DNA of 64,000 bases from assembly GCA_964016885.1 (NCBI GenBank), contig OZ024742.1, positions 58,156,001 to 58,220,000 on the forward strand. The letters are read 5' to 3'. Below the pieces are notes generated by a model. That model ran no database searches and was not told the DNA's origin. It was given only the letters and a program-made list of their open reading frames with translations. Origin of the DNA: Eledone cirrhosa. Its lineage: Eukaryota. Positions 22,801 to 30,928 of the stretch are shown piece by piece. The position numbers and the translations under genes are program-made. Numbering within the stretch: the first letter of the stretch is position 1; each line of letters starts with the position of its first letter.

Positions 22801-22839
22801 TTATCATTATTATGTTGTGCTGAATCTCTCGAGACGGTT

Positions 22840-25438
22840 GTAACTACGGCGGAGTAAGTCAGTTAAATATTATGAATTTATCGAAAGTTCTATATAGTAA
22901 TTTTTACATTGGCGTGTAGTTAAAGAACCCCTCTTTCAAAGGAGGTGGGGTTTTTTAACTGTATCTCGCGTCCTTAAGGGCTGAATTTGTATTTATTTAC
23001 AATAGTAACCCCAATTTTTGTTTAAAAAACAAACATGGCGGACAAAAAAAATTGTCCACGGAGAGGAACAGCGGGTTGTTCGGAGAGTAGAACAGCTGAT
23101 TCCATCCAATCACATGGCAAAGGCAAAAACAACAGAAACGACAGTGACAGTGGTGGTGACAACAGCAGCAGCAGCCACTGGAACAGTAACAGCAGTAGTG
23201 CAAATTACAACAAAAACTTCCCTCAATTAGAAAATCACCGCCCAATAACAACAGCAACAGCCATAAAGAACCCAAGGAGCAACAACTATAACAGCAGCAA
23301 CACAGAGGGAAAAAAACCCAACAAAAACACCAACGACGGCAACAACAACAACAAAGAAAAAACTAGTGATGAGTCAGCACAGCAAATCAAAACAAACACA
23401 TCTTTCGCTAAAGCCACAAAAAATATTGAACAGGTACACATCACCAATGAGGAAATAAAACAAGCGAAGATCTTGGTTAAAAAGACCGGACACAGGGTAA
23501 GTCTCATCCGCCCAGCGGATATAAAAAACAAGCTTTTGTGTTCAGTCAGTTATCGCACAATCGGAACAAAATTTTGTCGAGTCAAACGGGCAACGGAGTC
23601 ACAAGTCCCAAGAGCTATGGCTGCCGTCTGGGCACAGAAAACATACATAGCCCGTGGATTGAGGTATGGCACAGTGCATGTGCTCTTCGCTACACCAGAA
23701 GAAGCCAGAGCACACTTCACTGCGGCCAGAGAGTCGTGAGGGTTCAAGTGGCCCAGGTTTCGCCCTCAGTGGAGATGGCATGGTTGACGGCGGCCGTCCT
23801 CGCTGACATTGAGGATTCAACAACTATACTCAACATCATGCGAATAAAACAGGAGAATTGGACAGGGTCAGGGATGGAGCTAACCATCCAAGTAGACCAT
23901 GAGAGCATCGAGGCCATCCCCAATGTAATAGACGTGGACGACGGCAGCCATCTACCCGTGACTGTCGAGGGTAGGTGCCCAAGGTGTCATGGATGCGGTG
24001 AGAAGACGCACCTTAAGGCCTTCTGCCCCAAACTCACCAAAACGGGCACGCGCCCATCCCTTCTCCTTCTGTGCCCCGCGACTGGAGTGGACAAACAAAC
24101 CAAGACCTCAGTGGCAGAAGAGAAATCACTATCCCCAACAACAAAAGTACCATCTCTTCCACCACCCACAGAACCAATGGAAAGCATGCCCCTTCCCGAT
24201 ATTGCTAAATCGGACAAGGAGTGCGATGAGGCTGAAGAATGGAAAACTATCCTAGCAAAAAAAAAAGGAAGAACTCCCTACCTTCGTCGTAAAAAAGAGA
24301 AAGAGGAAGAAAGAACTACCCCAAAAAAAGAAAATGAAAACGACCCCACCTCCTCCACCACCATCAACAGCCACACCAACATCACAGAAACAAACTACAT
24401 ACAGTACACATCTCCAAGCCGTCCCGGATTTGGGGTGGAGTGGCCGTGTTGTTCTGGAGAAGTCTGGATCTAGAGATACGGGCCGTCTTCTTGGACCCAG
24501 AAGGTAAGTTGGTGGTGCTGGACATGACCAGCAGAGAAGGGCAAGCTTTCAGGCTAGTGGGCGTCGATGCCCCGACAGGGGCAGGACAGCCTGACTTCTT
24601 GCAGCGACAGGAGACTTTTCTTGGAACAGCCTGCTCTTTAGTGTTAGTGGGTGACTGGAACGGGATCTTAGATGCACACTGGGACTGTGTGGGATTAACG
24701 GATAGGGGAGGAGAGTGTAAAAGCCTCACAAACCTGCTCAGACGTTTTCAACTGTCTGACAGGTACCATCTGGATTTCCCAAATGTGCCAATGTGGACAT
24801 GGACAAACCACATCGGGTTATCCAGATCATATCTAGATAGGGTATTTTGTAGGAAAATAGATAGGTCTAGCATAGGCTGTCCACAATTCAAGATAGTCGA
24901 CTACACGGACCACAAATTCATCTGTGTGGTTGACTTAGATAGGCTTCATAGACAAGGACCCAGCTACTGGAAACTAAACGCGTTAACAGCGCACAAAGCT
25001 TACAAATTAGTTAAGTGGGCGTTGACAGAGGCCATCGTCTACAACAAATGGTGGTTTGCCTTGAAAAGAGCAATTAGAATAGAGTCCATTAGGTTTAGTA
25101 AAGCGATAGTATCAGAGAAAAATAGAGCAGAAGGAAATCTAGTTAGCAAATTAGACGAGGCGCTTAGTAAAGGTATCGCAACCGACGTGCTTGCGGTGAA
25201 ATTGGCTCTCGACCAATTTTTCAACGCTAAGCACGAAGGCTGCATTGTCAGAGCTAGGGTGCGTGCTCTCAGACACGAGGGGATGAAAGCCGTTCAATGA
25301 GATCGGGTGGCGGAGGCGCTTTGTGGCAACAAATCAACGATCTGGTCTTTGACGGACCACGACACATGCATGATACTCGATCACGGGCAGATGTGTGCGG
25401 TTTTTCAGCAGCACTTTGTTCAGCTGTTCGGGGGCACC
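22840..25438 (+). mobile_element. Tx1-clade LINE copy E (divergent subfamily; ORF1 + EN, truncated before RT)
   Basis: ORF1 23035-24410 with knuckle CHGCGEKTHLKAFC. EN 24440-25300 (VGDWN, SYLDR, TDH, YWKLN). Confidence 0.88.
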
Positions 25439-28400
25439 AAAGAAGCCGATAAAATGAATACTGTGGTCATTATGAACACTGACTACTATAGGGACCTGGC
25501 ACTTAAAATCTTAGACGACAACAAATACTACGAAAAAACAGAACTACAAACTAAAACAACGGGGAATCTCCCAGCATTACTACAAAAATATCGCAATAAC
25601 TTAACCACAAAAGAATTTGAATATATAAGCCATTTCAAATATAAAACAAGTGCTTTCTACGGCTTATCAAAGATACATAAATGTAAACTCATAAACGATG
25701 CATGTGACACTTCGACTAACAAATACATACATTTAACACCACCAGAAAACTTAAAACTCAAACCAATTATAGCAGGCCCTGCATGTGAATCCCACAGACT
25801 TAGCAACTTCCTGGACATCTTTCTAAAGCCCTTCCTAAAACATATACAGAGTTACATACGGGATGACCTTGATATGCTGAACCACCTACCTAAAACAGTA
25901 AGTGAAGACACTATTCTTGTCTCCTTTGACGTAAAGTTTTACACTAATATACCCCACAACTATGGAATAACAGCAATCCAGTTTTGGCGAGACACACCAA
26001 TCTGAAATACCAACACGCATCAACAAAAACTTTATTATTGATGGCCTCCGATTTATCTTACAGAATAATTATTTTACTTTCAATGATTCAACATACCGAC
26101 AAATCTCATGTACTGCAATGGGCACGAAGGTAGCCCCCACATACGTTAACCTAGTCATGTGATTCCACGAACAACAAACTTACAACCAATCCCTTCTATT
26201 ATTTGGAGACTCTTTCCTTACACATCTCAAAAATAATTGGGAGACCTAGATGATTGCTTTATACTATGGCAGGAAAACATGAATACATTCATTATTTTCA
26301 AAAATATGATAAACACTATTAACAATAACATACAATTCACAATGGAATCAAACTCCAAGGAATTAGCCTTCTTCAATATCCTTATTTTAAAAACAAATGG
26401 GAAAATAGAAACAGACATCTTTTATAAACCCACCGACTCCAAACAGTACCTCCTCTTCACATCAAGGCACCCAAAACATACAAAACTTAACATTCCTTTT
26501 AACTTAGCCAAACGTATATGCACTATAGCATCAGACCCAACTAAACGGGAACAAAGACTAAATGAACTAAAAAACACACTTGCCTTCCCACTTGACATAA
26601 TTAATAACGGAATAAACAGAGCAAAACATGCAAATTTTCATCCACTTAGCAATCCAAAGCACAGAACCAATAGCTACAATCATTTCCCCATTATATGGAG
26701 CACAGATGTCAGACCAGGAGAAATGAAAAAACTTAAATATATTCGAAACATTTATAAAAAGGCAACTAGACTGACTGAAGCGTTACATACCATCAACAAT
26801 GGCTAATTACTTCTGCTAACTACCAAGAAGAGTGTTGATAGAAGGCAGATGTTACATCAATGCAACTTTCTCTAACTGGTGTATGGAGACATACATACCA
26901 AAACTTGAGAGACCATCGACTTCGGCTGCCATAGATAACGTTACTGAAACAGAACCAAAATTCATTAGTAAAAGCGGAACAACTCTGTTTCTTTTCAACT
27001 ATCTATCATATATATTTACTTCGAAAAAATTCCGTACAGAGCAGGACAAGAAGGCTTACTGGCTAAATCGATCTAATAACGAAAATTTCATGAAAGCCAT
27101 TGCTCATCATCAATACGACAGTGTGATGAAGAAGGTTCTGGAATGCGAGAAACTAAATACGCTGCCTCGACCATTCAGAACGAAGTTCGAAAATATGAAT
27201 TGGGAGTTCTTCAATAGCAACAGCACTTACCTCGATGTAGACACTTCCTTGAAAGTTATTAGAACGATAGTCATAACACAAAACATTGTAGAGAACTATT
27301 TCGTCAACCAAGTGTGGGAACTGTTGACGCTGAAAGCTCAAAAACGAAATCTGTTATTACGAGGACTTCCTAACACCGGGAAGAGTATGATAGCACGATC
27401 TATTGCAGATCTGTTCACACACATTTCGACAATGCAGGGGACATCCAGTTTCCCTTTCCAAAATTTTATAAATGTAGAAATTGGTTTAATTGAAGAGCCA
27501 TCATTCATGCTCAAAACACTGCAAACATTTAAAAAAACTAGCAGAAGGGGTCGATACTAAAGTGATGGTCAAATTCAAGTTAGACCAAACTGTCAAATAT
27601 ACACTGCTGATTATATCAAATACAAAATTTGATTCGCAAGGACAGACAGCAGAAAAACAAGCTTTCGTTACTAGATATTCGGAATTCGTGTTCAACGTAC
27701 AATCTCCTTTTCTGAAGCATGTCAGAAAAATGTTAAATCCTAGCATATGGAATATTTCGTTTTATGAACACTGTTTCTCATCTATATCAAATGAAGAGAG
27801 TGATTCATTGGATGAACACCTCGCTTTCATTTTAGATGAATATGAAAGAAAATGTGAAGAACATCGAAAAAGAAGTACCGAAGAAAACAAACGAGTGGAT
27901 TGGGGACTCCGAGTAGAACTGGAAGCAGGGACACCCTGCATGCACACCAGAACAAAGAGAATATACCTCCAAAGAAGATTTTACAGAGGAGCCCAAATGG
28001 GCATTATGCATGTCTTCATTATATAATTAAAATGCATGATTTATATATTATTATATTATATTTTGGGGCAATTAAAAATACTTTTAAAAAAAAGAAATTG
28101 AAAAAACAGAAAGTAAAAAGAAAATGAAGACCGATCGGTTTGCATTTTTCTTTTTAAAACGGCGATCAATGCACCGTTCAAAGAGGGTCAAACTTTTACA
28201 GAGAAGCTGATCTACGTAATCACATGCGGTGGTTGTCGAGATAACTACATAGGACAGACGGGTGTGACATTATGCAAAAGAATGACCATCCATCGCCTAC
28301 AAATCTGTGAACACAAGAAAAATCCCCTTAAGTAGCTACATTGCAGATTGTGCAGGAATGACCCTACCCAACTTTAAAATCTTCACCCTTTATAAGTGCT

Positions 28401-28480
28401 CATATTCTTTCACACAACAACAAAGAATAAACAAAAACTACTTTATTAACAGATTTAAACCAAAATTAAATACGTAATCA
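25439..28480 (+). mobile_element. Penelope-like element (RT 25439-26680, GIY-YIG 28200-28480) split by a parvoviral insert
   Basis: KEADK..VVIM, FYGLSKIHK, KPIIAG, LVSFDV..YTNIPH, MGTKVAP, LDDCF and YKPTD..QYL..SRHP. Downstream LIYVITCGGCRDNYIGQTG..KRMTIH. Confidence 0.9.
26832..28026 (+). pseudogene. Endogenous parvovirus/densovirus NS1 (Rep, SF3 helicase) fragment with one frameshift near 27535
   Basis: KRNLLLRGLPNTGKS (Walker A), FPFQN, IGLIEE (Walker B), FKKLAEGVDTKVMVK (motif B') and LLIISN (motif C). Confidence 0.85.
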
Positions 28481-28499
28481 CCCCCATTAGATGCTCTCT

Positions 28500-30420
28500 C
28501 TCTTACTATAAACTCTTCCTCCATAAAGTTGAAGATGTGGTCAAGCATTTGAAATGGAGAGCATTAGGTTTCGATGGAATGCTGTCAAGTTCTGCCAATA
28601 TATTCAACCTCAAATCTAGAAAGTACCCACCTAAGGTAAATGAACTCGCTAGCTTTGAGGTGATCTTCTTAGTCTCGTTGCACTCCAATTCTTTTCAAAA
28701 CAAAATAAGTAGAGTCATTAAAAACATCAGATCTTCTGATAGAACTTCCGTCCTATCTGATAAAACTAACAACCTGTATGAATTAGATCAGTCTACCTAT
28801 AATCAACTCCTTAGCAAAATCATACAGGCTAAATACAAAAAAGCTGACTCTGCTACCTATTATGCCATTAATACTGGCGCTAAGGATATAGCCACCACCC
28901 TTAGAGTAGGCAACAAATTAGAGTGTTTGGTTAGGTGAGAGGCCTATATCACCCTTAAGGACCATAAGGATGACTTTGCCAACAAACCAACGTGTAGATT
29001 TATAAACCCTGCTAAAACAGAGCTAGTTCTTGTTAGTAAAGACATACTCAAGAAAATTAATATAGCCATTAGGAAACAGTCCAGCCTTAATCAGTGGGAT
29101 AATAGTCAAACAGTTATAGATTGGTTTAATGTCCTCAAACACACTAAGAAAGCTAGATTTACACAATTTGACATTATTGACTTTTACCCCTCGAATTCCA
29201 GGACCTTACTTGATAAGGCCCTTGATTTCGCTACTAAATTTACTAGCGTAGATGATTTGGACTGTTTAGTCATATCCCACTGCAGGGAAACCCTCCTCTT
29301 TAGCAATGGAGACCCATGGATAAAACAATCAACCACCAATGACCTATTCAATGTACTGATGGGATCATTTGACAGCGCAGATATATGCGATTTGGTGGGC
29401 CTATTTGTTCTAGACACCATACAGAACAAATTCCCAGATTTCCATACGGGGATATATCGCGATGACGATCTGGCACTATCTATCCATGAAAATGGCCATG
29501 ACCTGGACACTTTTAGGAAAAGCTTAATCACTACCTTCAACAGTCTAGGTTTAAAAATTACAATAGCCACTAATCTCATGCACGTATAGACCATTCCACA
29601 AACCCAGTACATCCATAAAAACCTACATCACCAGCAAACACAAAAGCCCTCCACCATAGGGATGTTCATGTAGAAGACCTGAAACATGTCCACTAGACCA
29701 ACAGTGCAATTCCAAGCAGAGTTTACCTCCACCAACCAGAACTACCAAACTGAAGCCTGGACCAATGTTGGTATGTCCGAGAGCCAGTTTAAAAACTGGT
29801 AACTGAATCATGAAACAACATTCAGATATCCCAACAAAAAACATACCACCCAGCTCAGAACAACAGCACCCCTTTCCATCTAATGGCGGGTTTTGAAAAG
29901 CTCTACTGCCCACGTAAATGGGTCGAAATATTGTTGACTTTGTAATTCTGAAAAATGGTGGATACTCTCACAATTACCTTCAGATAAGGACTGCCTCAAC
30001 ACATGGCTCAATTGTTTTGGCGGCTGAACCCATGTGGTGAAGTATATTTTGGATAAATGGCTTAGGCCTAACTAGCAGGTCTAAAAGTATCTTTTAATTT
30101 ACTGACTATATTGTAATTCAGTGAAATTGGATTTTTTGAGTCAACTAGAAGAAATTATTGTGCTTCTATTTTCATTCAAAATTGACTGTGGTCTCTCGAG
30201 TTACCTCCCTTGATCTTACCCTATAATTTTAAAAACCTTTTTTCTAAATTACCTGCCCCTGCATAAACTCTTAAAAGGATAGCACAATCAACCCTAGGTG
30301 GCCATCTTTGTTTTTATTTTTCTCATGACAAGCTAAATGAGTTGGAGCCCAGAACCCAATGAAACTTGAGTACCTGTCTATTTCACTGTTGTGGGTGTAT
30401 AATCTATACCATCATATTTT
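28500..30420 (+). mobile_element. Penelope-like element, decayed and internally deleted
   Basis: KVEDVVKHLKWRA, DKTNNLY, YITLKDHKDDF..KPTCR..NPAK, FTQFDIIDFYPS, MGSFDSADICDLVG and IYRDDDL. 3' hammerhead remnant. Confidence 0.88.
30327..30378 (+). ncRNA. Degenerate type I hammerhead ribozyme motif
   Basis: gacaag-CTAAATGA-gttgg..ccaat-GAAACT-tg-AGUA-cctgtc. Core altered from CUGAUGA. Confidence 0.55.
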
Positions 30421-30494
30421 AAAGAATGAATATATTTAGCTAGGGAGGTAACATTTTTAAGCCTATTATATCTAAATGTATAATTAAATGTATA

Positions 30495-30928
30495 ATAGCA
30501 GCCTCCTCCAGAGTCTGATCCCATTGAGCGTCATCTTCCAAGAGTCCAAGTTTTGCACATGCCTCCCTATACGTAATGCAGAGGTTGCCATTGATGCGCC
30601 GTAGCTCAGTGAAAGAAGTAGGATCCCTAACACTGTGCAGCAAAATACATACCTACGTCAAATTTCATTGGAAGTGGACAAATTCCGTAAATATCGACTT
30701 TTGCCTCTGGTGATCCAGTTATCATCGCCGGATCAAAATACACACTTGCGTCGAGTTTCATCGAAATCAGACGATTTTTGAAAATATCGATTTTTGGCTT
30801 CTGGGAGACCGATTATTGATTTTTCAAAAATTTCAAGTAGCCTATTCCAATCTACGGGTCGAGTTTTATGAAAACCGGATGAACGGTGTAGCCTGCAAGT
30901 TTGGGACACCAAACAAACAAACAAACAA
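30495..30928 (-). mobile_element. Helitron fragment (RepHel linker plus (GTTT)n 5'-region-like sequence)
   Basis: LLHSVRDPTSFTELRRING..TYREACAKLGLLEDDAQWDQTLEEAA is a typical Helitron RepHel motif. Confidence 0.75.

What the first reader, a model, noticed from the sequence alone, without database searches (positions are those of the whole stretch)
26680..28130. Parvovirus NS1-like gene captured inside a Penelope element, between RT and GIY-YIG
Seen: a complete SF3 helicase motif set (A, B, B', C) in parvoviral spacing, co-oriented with the PLE. It replaces the RT-endonuclease linker and is followed by ATTAAA (28071-76) and a decayed A-rich tract (28086-28124) before the GIY-YIG resumes. No capsid gene or ITR is visible. 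Known: EVEs in arthropods often arise by retroelement RT template switching and collect in piRNA clusters, and giant PLEs (Terminons) carry Rep ORFs. Inference: a viral mRNA was reverse-transcribed into a PLE. This would record a possibly undescribed invertebrate parvovirus lineage and a PLE-mediated route to antiviral sequence memory.
Basis: partly seen in the sequence, partly recalled or inferred. Interest (0 to 1): 0.8.

Follow-up and report, generated by a model that had tools for sequence, protein, structure and literature searches.

The report
Capsid-first parvovirus fossil in Penelope element
A broken 1.5-kb piece of a parvovirus (replication gene plus genome end) replaces the middle of one Penelope retrotransposon in a likely octopus genome, likely joined in by a template-switching reverse transcriptase, and related viral fossils elsewhere in this genome carry the capsid gene ahead of the replication gene, the reverse of the usual parvovirus order.

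Summary
Window 26670-28183 is parvoviral: a broken NS1 (HUH remnant, full SF3 motif set) followed by viral 3' non-coding DNA. It replaces about 284 nt of linker between the RT and GIY-YIG halves of one Penelope family; both halves are equally aged (5.1% and 5.5%). The 'poly(A)' is not a tail: A-tract, hairpin and a downstream motif are shared viral terminal sequence, so the template was not a mature mRNA. The chimera is a single dead copy within a seam-to-seam chain LINE|PLE|virus|PLE|PLE, in a 70-kb tract whose retroelement coding DNA is 43,232 vs 89 bp plus/minus. Related viral loci are co-oriented with their nearest retroelement in 17 of 21 cases (controls 8 of 17). RT template switching is the best reading (0.55); DNA-repair insertion remains open (0.3). 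The larger finding: the virus lineage is capsid-first on one strand (18 of 19 places) between two different hairpin ends, with NS1 predicted to be spliced over the capsid gene. Octopus NS1 fragments of this clade were listed in 2016; I found no report of this gene order. No small-RNA data were available.

The parts
22831..25436 (+). 5' part of an APE-type LINE (ORF1, endonuclease), cut off mid-ORF2; upstream member of the chain; start approximate
   Evidence: Pfam Exo_endo_phos; family copies continue where the window switches to the PLE, 2-nt overlap; 6.2-6.4% from column majority
25435..26669 (+). Penelope family 1, RT half, 5'-truncated and broken
   Evidence: 85-89% to many family copies, all ending at 26669; 58/1142 = 5.1% from column majority
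26670..28183 (+). Parvoviral insert, 1514 nt, replacing about 284 nt of PLE linker
   Evidence: 65-74% to other viral loci over 26674-28183; junctions
26670..28001 (+). Broken, 5'-truncated NS1: HUH motif remnant 26675-26689, SF3 A 27363-27386, B 27480-27500, B' 27532-27579, C 27604-27621; frameshifts near 26775, 27530 and 27900, a stop at 26817-26819, about 80 nt lost near 28001
28071..28076 (+). Poly(A) signal variant ATTAAA (AATAAA at this place in most relatives shown)
28086..28124 (+). A-rich tract, genomic viral sequence, not a retro-tail
   Evidence: aligns with the same tract in L051 and is followed by further shared viral sequence
28114..28156 (.). Subterminal hairpin of the viral right end
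   Evidence: like hairpins in L051, L052, L053, L065, L066, L069, L070
28170..28183 (+). Conserved viral subterminal motif that also resembles the PLE sequence at the right junction (imperfect microhomology)
   Evidence: 16 of 20 columns match between a viral relative and an empty PLE copy
28184..28503 (+). Penelope family 1, GIY-YIG half, with a 27-nt deletion near 28200 and lacking the family's 3' UTR
   Evidence: 86-91% to 29 family loci; 16/290 = 5.5%; 3' extension of other copies absent
28502..30392 (+). Penelope family 2, 5'-truncated, internally deleted, running to the end shared with family copies; last member of the chain
   Evidence: 2-nt overlap with family 1; 4.4% and 7.9% from column majority

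Best explanation
This is a dead, single-copy chimera in which a parvovirus fragment replaces the linker of one Penelope element, likely made when a retroelement reverse transcriptase switched templates from Penelope RNA to an unspliced plus-sense viral strand and back. Shown: the anatomy, the same-family halves, the viral terminal sequence beyond the poly(A) signal, the seams with 1-4 nt overlaps, the strand bias of the tract and the co-orientation of related viral loci with retroelements. Inferred: copying ran right to left (PLE family 2, PLE family 1 GIY-YIG, virus entered at a roughly 20-nt look-alike stretch just inside the viral right end, PLE family 1 RT about 284 nt further upstream, then a LINE), with read-through viral RNA or plus-strand viral DNA as the template rather than mature mRNA. 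Inferred and untested: the tract is a piRNA source transcribed from the minus strand, which would give antisense viral piRNAs. The donor is an octopod parvovirus lineage whose capsid gene precedes NS1 on the same strand.
For: Halves equally diverged, 58/1142 vs 16/290, Fisher p 0.77. Replacement without target duplication; right-junction likeness 16/20, 0.3% of 20,000 random pairs score as high, but the pair was chosen after the fact and with the window's own viral end the figure is 7%. Four successive seams, all sense, none at a natural element end, overlaps 2, 1, 4 and 2 nt, ages 4-8%. Nearest retroelement co-oriented in 17 of 21 viral loci with any hit (27 examined) vs 8 of 17 ordinary PLE loci (20 examined), Fisher p 0.04; 7 of 7 among the 10 loci fetched later, one of which adjoins an earlier locus and one was picked for its PLE neighbour. 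Viral 3' ends run straight into co-oriented retroelement 3' parts in L056 and L060 (library hits) and into short pieces ending in simple-repeat tails in L054, L067, L070 (read by eye), the pattern expected from target-primed copying with a switch. Precedents: polarity match of EVEs and LTR elements read as copy choice in Aedes (10.1101/127498, passages); a 1.5-kb foreign insert between RT and EN of a rotifer Penelope (PMC3846280, section 7).
Against: Parvoviruses need no RT: recent near-identical copies here show inverted joins and hairpin ends in both orientations with no retroelement coding sequence within several kb in L057-L059, so DNA-level integration happens in this genome. Short overlaps and target loss fit end-joining repair equally. 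The PLE 3' piece lacks its own 3' UTR, so it cannot be the priming end unless a further switch is assumed. No target-site duplication was found around the chain (best 7-mer match, chance level). Co-orientation could come from selection inside one-strand clusters, and several copies hold left-end hairpin and promoter DNA that no ordinary mRNA contains. The age test is inconclusive: 15 of 163 conserved NS1 codons changed (95% CI 5-15%) fits co-insertion if background is low (p 0.46-0.70) and fits a later arrival if it is about 4% (p 0.02). Internal deletions are common in ordinary copies of these families too. I could not read the in-vitro Penelope RT paper.
Confidence: 0.55

Rival explanations
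1. A fragment of viral single-stranded DNA patched a double-strand break inside a resident Penelope copy by microhomology-mediated repair, with loss of about 284 nt; co-orientation is chance or was kept because the tract is a one-strand silencing cluster.
For: DNA-level integrations with replication-form hairpin joins occur in this genome. The right junction lies just inside the viral terminus; sequence beyond the poly(A) signal is included; no spliced copy in 19 places. Parvoviral EVEs are generally read as derived from genomic DNA (PMC3205384, passages). The NS1 decay estimate may be lower than that of the PLE.
Against: Does not predict 17 of 21 co-orientation or direct joins to retroelement 3' ends with tails without an extra selection step; does not explain the chain of four seams.
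Confidence: 0.32
2. A polyadenylated NS1 mRNA was reverse-transcribed into the Penelope element and the A-tract is its decayed tail.
For: Sense orientation, poly(A) signal followed by an A-rich tract. One other locus, L056, does show AATAAA plus 14 A joined to a LINE 3' part.
Against: The A-tract, hairpin and 14-nt motif downstream are shared with other viral copies, so the insert passes the expected cleavage site by about 110 nt; in these viruses an A-run follows the signal in the genome itself.
Confidence: 0.05
3. Deletions in a tract densely packed with co-oriented insertions brought two separate Penelope copies and an independent viral insert together.
For: The neighbouring seams join unrelated elements without natural ends; the tract is 61% retroelement coding DNA.
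Against: Needs two copies of the same family, of the same age, cut at nearly complementary places on either side of the virus; no other family-1 piece was detected in the neighbourhood examined.
Confidence: 0.08

Closest known systems
Parvoviridae (NS1 with HUH and SF3 domains; VP with PLA2; hairpin ends); nearest solved capsid: Penaeus monodon metallodensovirus, 6wh3
   Same: NS1 domains, PLA2 at the VP start (PF08398, 51.5 bits), capsid match to 6wh3 (E 4.3e-8; 8.5e-9 with a profile), two different hairpin ends, right end seen in both orientations.
   Different: VP precedes NS1 on the same strand with a 52-58 nt gap in 15 places; a 2024 review states that all parvoviruses encode NS on the left and VP on the right (PMC11357303, passage). 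No classified parvovirus fell in the clade (few rows carry names).
Octopus parvovirus-related sequences (O. bimaculoides A0A0L8GWZ8; O. vulgaris 'nonstructural' and 'capsid' annotations)
   Same: Same NS1 clade, SH-aLRT 99; A0A0L8GWZ8 is listed as an NS fragment in the supplement of PMC5013282; an O. vulgaris capsid is 37% identical.
   Different: The supplement rows I saw list NS fragments only; no gene order, termini, splicing or retroelement chimeras were in the passages read.
EVE-retrotransposon hybrids in Aedes aegypti piRNA clusters
   Same: Same-polarity EVE and retroelement fragments in large unidirectional tracts holding several virus kinds (10.1101/127498, passages).
   Different: There RNA viruses and LTR elements; here an ssDNA virus joined to Penelope, LINE and Gypsy pieces in a mollusc-type host; piRNA output not shown here.
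Penelope elements with captured linker inserts (Adineta vaga Pen2a)
   Same: 1.5-kb foreign insert between RT and EN (PMC3846280, section 7).
   Different: There an N-rich insert that keeps the ORF and is present in two copies; here a viral insert in a broken single copy.
Terminons with Rep ORFs (recalled; paper not held)
   Same: PLE-type RT next to a Rep-like gene.
   Different: This is a small endonuclease-bearing Penelope with a one-off insert, interstitial, not a propagating cargo.

Membership tests
Parvoviridae-derived EVE | NS1 with SF3 helicase motifs A, B, B', C | tested here: met
Parvoviridae-derived EVE | HUH endonuclease upstream of SF3 | tested here: met
   remnant YNHF at 26675-26686 matches the conserved NHFH motif of relatives; motif label from established knowledge
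Parvoviridae-derived EVE | Linked parvoviral capsid gene | tested here: met
   absent from this insert; present in relatives with PLA2 and a match to a solved densovirus capsid; the fold prediction failed (mean pLDDT 32)
Parvoviridae-derived EVE | Hairpin termini of a linear genome | tested here: met
   left and right hairpins in relatives; only the subterminal hairpin in the window
Described monosense parvovirus genera | NS cassette upstream (left) of VP cassette | tested here: not met
   VP upstream of NS1 in 18 of 19 places holding the NS1 start vs PMC11357303
A named parvovirus subfamily or genus | SF3 tree clustering with classified members | tested here: inconclusive
   tree of 148 of 163 rows (15 dropped for short overlap), quick search; almost no named anchors
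Endonuclease-bearing Penelope element | One ORF with RT then C-terminal GIY-YIG | tested here: met
   empty copies join both halves; GIY-YIG Pfam hit is weak (E 0.099); RT identified by motif reading and family copies, with no Pfam RT hit in the broken frames
Endonuclease-bearing Penelope element | pLTR ends, hammerhead ribozyme, target duplication | tested here: inconclusive
   window copy lacks both ends; no Rfam hit in 4 family loci; no duplication found
Processed (mRNA-derived) retrocopy | Ends at a poly(A) tail, introns removed, target duplication | tested here: not met
piRNA cluster | Dense, strand-biased retroelement fragments | tested here: met
   43,232 plus vs 89 minus bp in 70,400; controls 14,191 vs 16,801 in 200,000
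piRNA cluster | Antisense 1U small RNAs mapping to it | not testable with these tools
   no small-RNA run could be laid
Terminon | Giant telomeric Athena-type element with co-propagating cargo ORFs | tested here: not met
   interstitial (58 Mb into a 379-Mb contig), small, no second chimera; family features recalled

The most novel reading that the evidence does not exclude
Octopods host a parvovirus lineage of subfamily rank with an inverted, capsid-first single-strand gene order in which NS1 is made by splicing an 18-codon leader over the whole capsid gene; host retroelement reverse transcriptases, Penelope among them, repeatedly splice pieces of this DNA virus into one-strand piRNA clusters that serve as heritable antiviral memory in a cephalopod.
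Probability: 0.25. Interest if true: 0.85.

Novelty: new variant of a known kind. Interest (0 to 1): 0.66.

Why it matters
Parvovirus gene order is treated as fixed (NS left, VP right). A lineage with VP first on the same strand, bounded by real hairpin ends and with conserved in-phase splice sites, would be a new genome plan that raises a testable question: how the replication protein is made early when the capsid gene sits next to the only evident promoter. Parvoviral fossils are usually put down to DNA repair; a genome in which they are repeatedly joined in polarity to Penelope, LINE and Gypsy pieces gives a natural test of RT-mediated capture of an ssDNA virus and of piRNA-type antiviral memory in a mollusc. 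The Penelope chimera by itself is a dead single copy and matters mainly as one clean example.

Tried and rejected
Papillomavirus E1 or AAA+ origin: the window ORF alone is ambiguous, but relatives score higher as NS1/Rep and have a parvoviral capsid. Simple adjacency of two PLE families: rejected. A propagating PLE-NS1 family: none of 39 other matches to the left-junction query passes position 129 of 241 (junction at 110; 40 of 178 candidates scored), and none of 20 viral loci held family-1 PLE sequence. A second PLE-virus chimera: L091 has VP and the NS1 start about 200 nt upstream of a co-oriented family-1 3' piece, but a short repeat lies between, so it is not counted as a clean junction. 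Circular or concatemer origin of the VP-NS1 order: no hairpin lies in the 52-58 nt gap and hairpins flank the pair. Relatives in viral and metagenome contigs: none (77 and 117 pattern matches, 0 confirmed). Capsid fold: model unusable, so no fold search. Expression: no RNA holder listed. Run X4 (another organism) had only a small share and short matches: no evidence. Rfam on 4 PLE loci: nothing. Earlier scan findings: nothing relevant. Literature searches for an octopus parvovirus or an inverted order found no description of the gene order; the library lacks most subscription papers, and three wanted papers (Terminons, Penelope RT in vitro, PmMDV genome) were not held, so absence from print is not established.

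Full report
Scope and host. The window is G000:C3:58156001-58220000 of a 3.0-Gb animal assembly. The only named close relatives of the insert are Octopus vulgaris and O. bimaculoides proteins, so the host is inferred to be an octopod; this was not tested otherwise.

The insert. Three-frame translation shows SF3 motifs A, B, B' and C at 27363-27621. The first ORF alone scores Parvo_NS1 26.2 and PPV_E1_C 27.5 bits and has only weak PDB matches. A DNA search of the own genome gave 52 matches, among them about 20 separate loci at 65-74% identity; their less decayed ORFs score clearly as NS1, match parvoviral NS1 and AAV Rep before E1 and show that the window's piece begins at the HUH motif, in frame with the PLE RT tail. 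NS1 is broken by frameshifts near 26775, 27530 and 27900, a stop at 26817 and a loss of about 80 nt near 28001. In a quick IQ-TREE tree of the helicase region (148 of 163 rows; 15 dropped for short overlap) the window ORF sits in a 13-row clade (SH-aLRT 99) of 8 own-genome copies, 2 Octopus proteins and 3 unnamed proteins. Of 30 proteins looked up for names, only Octopus, a Lamellibrachia hypothetical protein and an unclassified bird-associated parvovirus were named, so the rank is open.

The Penelope host. Both flanks match one abundant family (1063 first-look candidates); 19 of 29 loci carry both halves, typically 326 nt apart. The window keeps the last 42 nt of that spacer less a 27-nt deletion, so about 284 nt are replaced by 1514 nt of virus. 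The halves differ from the family majority by 58/1142 and 16/290 (p 0.77), like other copies (means 5.8% and 5.4%). No second chimera was found.

The right end is viral DNA, not a tail. After the poly(A) signal the window shares the A-tract, a hairpin and a 14-nt motif with other copies, which then go on into the terminal palindrome. The switch back to the PLE falls in a stretch where virus and PLE look alike: 16 of 20 columns between relative L052 and empty copy L023 (0.3% of 20,000 random pairs; chosen post hoc; 7% using the window's own end). The left junction shares about 1 nt.

Context. The chimera is the centre of a chain of co-oriented pieces joined seam to seam: LINE 5' part, PLE1 RT, virus, PLE1 GIY-YIG without its 3' UTR, PLE2 to its end; overlaps 2, 1, 4, 2 nt; divergences 4.4-7.9%. 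No target duplication was found. From 58.116 to 58.186 Mb retroelement coding matches total 43,232 bp on plus and 89 on minus in 70,400 bp; 20 control regions around ordinary PLE1 copies give 14,191 and 16,801 in 200,000 (the query library was drawn largely from these loci, which inflates density but should not set strand). The closest viral relative lies 71 kb upstream on the same strand at 74% identity, too distant to be a local duplicate. Among 27 viral loci examined, 21 had a retroelement hit within the 10-kb stretch and the nearest was co-oriented in 17; controls 8 of 17. Several viral 3' ends run into retroelement 3' parts or tails; 5' ends join Gypsy or LINE pieces. Against this, L063, L067, L068 and L069 have an opposite-strand nearest hit, 6 loci have none, and recent near-identical copies show inverted joins typical of DNA replication forms.

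Mechanism. Template switching by a retroelement RT onto an unspliced plus-sense viral strand explains polarity, the look-alike junction, the replaced linker and the chain (0.55). Repair of a break in a resident copy explains the local anatomy as well and needs only selection or chance for polarity (0.32). The age test does not decide: 15 of 163 conserved NS1 codons are changed, against 10.5-11.5% expected for co-insertion without background and 13-15.5% with it. A mature mRNA template is excluded by the sequence beyond the poly(A) signal. The piRNA role is an inference from architecture; molluscs have the pathway (PMC6128900, passages) but no small-RNA data could be laid.

The virus lineage. 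Where the NS1 start is preserved (19 places, 5 of them copies of one recent virus), the VP C-terminus lies just upstream on the same strand in 18, 52-58 nt away in 15. VP starts with a PLA2 domain and matches the Penaeus monodon metallodensovirus capsid. A hairpin, TATA-like sequence and a short leader lie upstream of VP, and a different hairpin, seen in both orientations, lies downstream of NS1. A GT donor follows codon 18 of the leader in 6 of 6 copies where the leader pattern was found (10 looked at); a CAG acceptor after a pyrimidine-rich stretch lies 15 nt before NS1 position 1, in phase, in 17 of 19 places, whereas ATG at that position is present in only 8. The prediction is that NS1 is translated from a transcript spliced over the capsid gene; no spliced copy was found in the genome (0 of 19) and no RNA was available.

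What is known. PMC11357303 (passages) states NS left and VP right for all parvoviruses and has no mention of octopus or cephalopods; PMC13426907 (introduction and passages) describes an upstream PLA2 ORF in one new lineage but keeps NS1 before VP. PMC5013282 (passages and supplement search) already lists O. bimaculoides A0A0L8GWZ8, a member of this clade, as an NS fragment; I saw only the first two supplement hits per term. PMC6631224, PMC12287923, PMC8557442, PMC3205384 and PMC6011040 were read as passages or term searches only. The supplement of the bioRxiv preprint was not seen. Ten searches found no report of the capsid-first order or of a Penelope-parvovirus chimera, within a library that lacks most subscription papers.

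Verdict. New variant of a known kind, interest 0.66.

Noticed in passing
L171-L193 and L051-L070 (own genome, many contigs): Capsid-first parvovirus organisation with conserved in-phase donor and acceptor sites predicting NS1 splicing over VP.
   Followed up: yes
G000:C3:58.106-58.28 Mb (L077-L087 and window): Long tract of plus-strand retroelement fragments of many classes; strand flips to minus left of about 58.105 Mb; holds two related viral inserts 71 kb apart.
   Followed up: partly
L066 and L093 (C12:9.068-9.088 Mb); L052, L055, L061, L095: Several viral pieces, including a second unrelated densovirus-like NS and VP, lie close together on one strand, often beside LINE fragments.
   Followed up: partly
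L065:2045-5578: A Gypsy pol reading frame runs in frame into NS1 at a short look-alike stretch; L004 shows a like LINE-NS1 join.
   Followed up: partly
L091:3973-6780: VP and NS1 start about 200 nt upstream of a co-oriented 3' piece of the same Penelope family, with a short repeat between; possible second chimera.
   Followed up: partly
L057-L059, L062 (four contigs): Near-identical recent viral copies with inverted duplications and hairpin joins, pointing to recent DNA-level integration.
   Followed up: partly
G000:C841:41791-71250: About 28 copies of a 150-nt NS1-like match spaced 0.7-1.6 kb apart on an 87-kb contig: a tandem array containing viral sequence.
   Followed up: no
L069, after the viral right end: The viral end is followed by a short hairpin and CTA-ending motif that resembles a Helitron-type 3' end (recalled).
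   Followed up: no
L045: A family-1 Penelope copy that has lost most of the same linker without any insert.
   Followed up: no
window 27856-28085: One run of the same sample shows a second version of the insert with an 18-nt gap and two substitutions, so both haplotypes likely carry the chimera.
   Followed up: no
window 30440-30652: Minus-strand ORF fragment that reads like a Helitron Rep/helicase piece (recalled), just beyond the chain.
   Followed up: no
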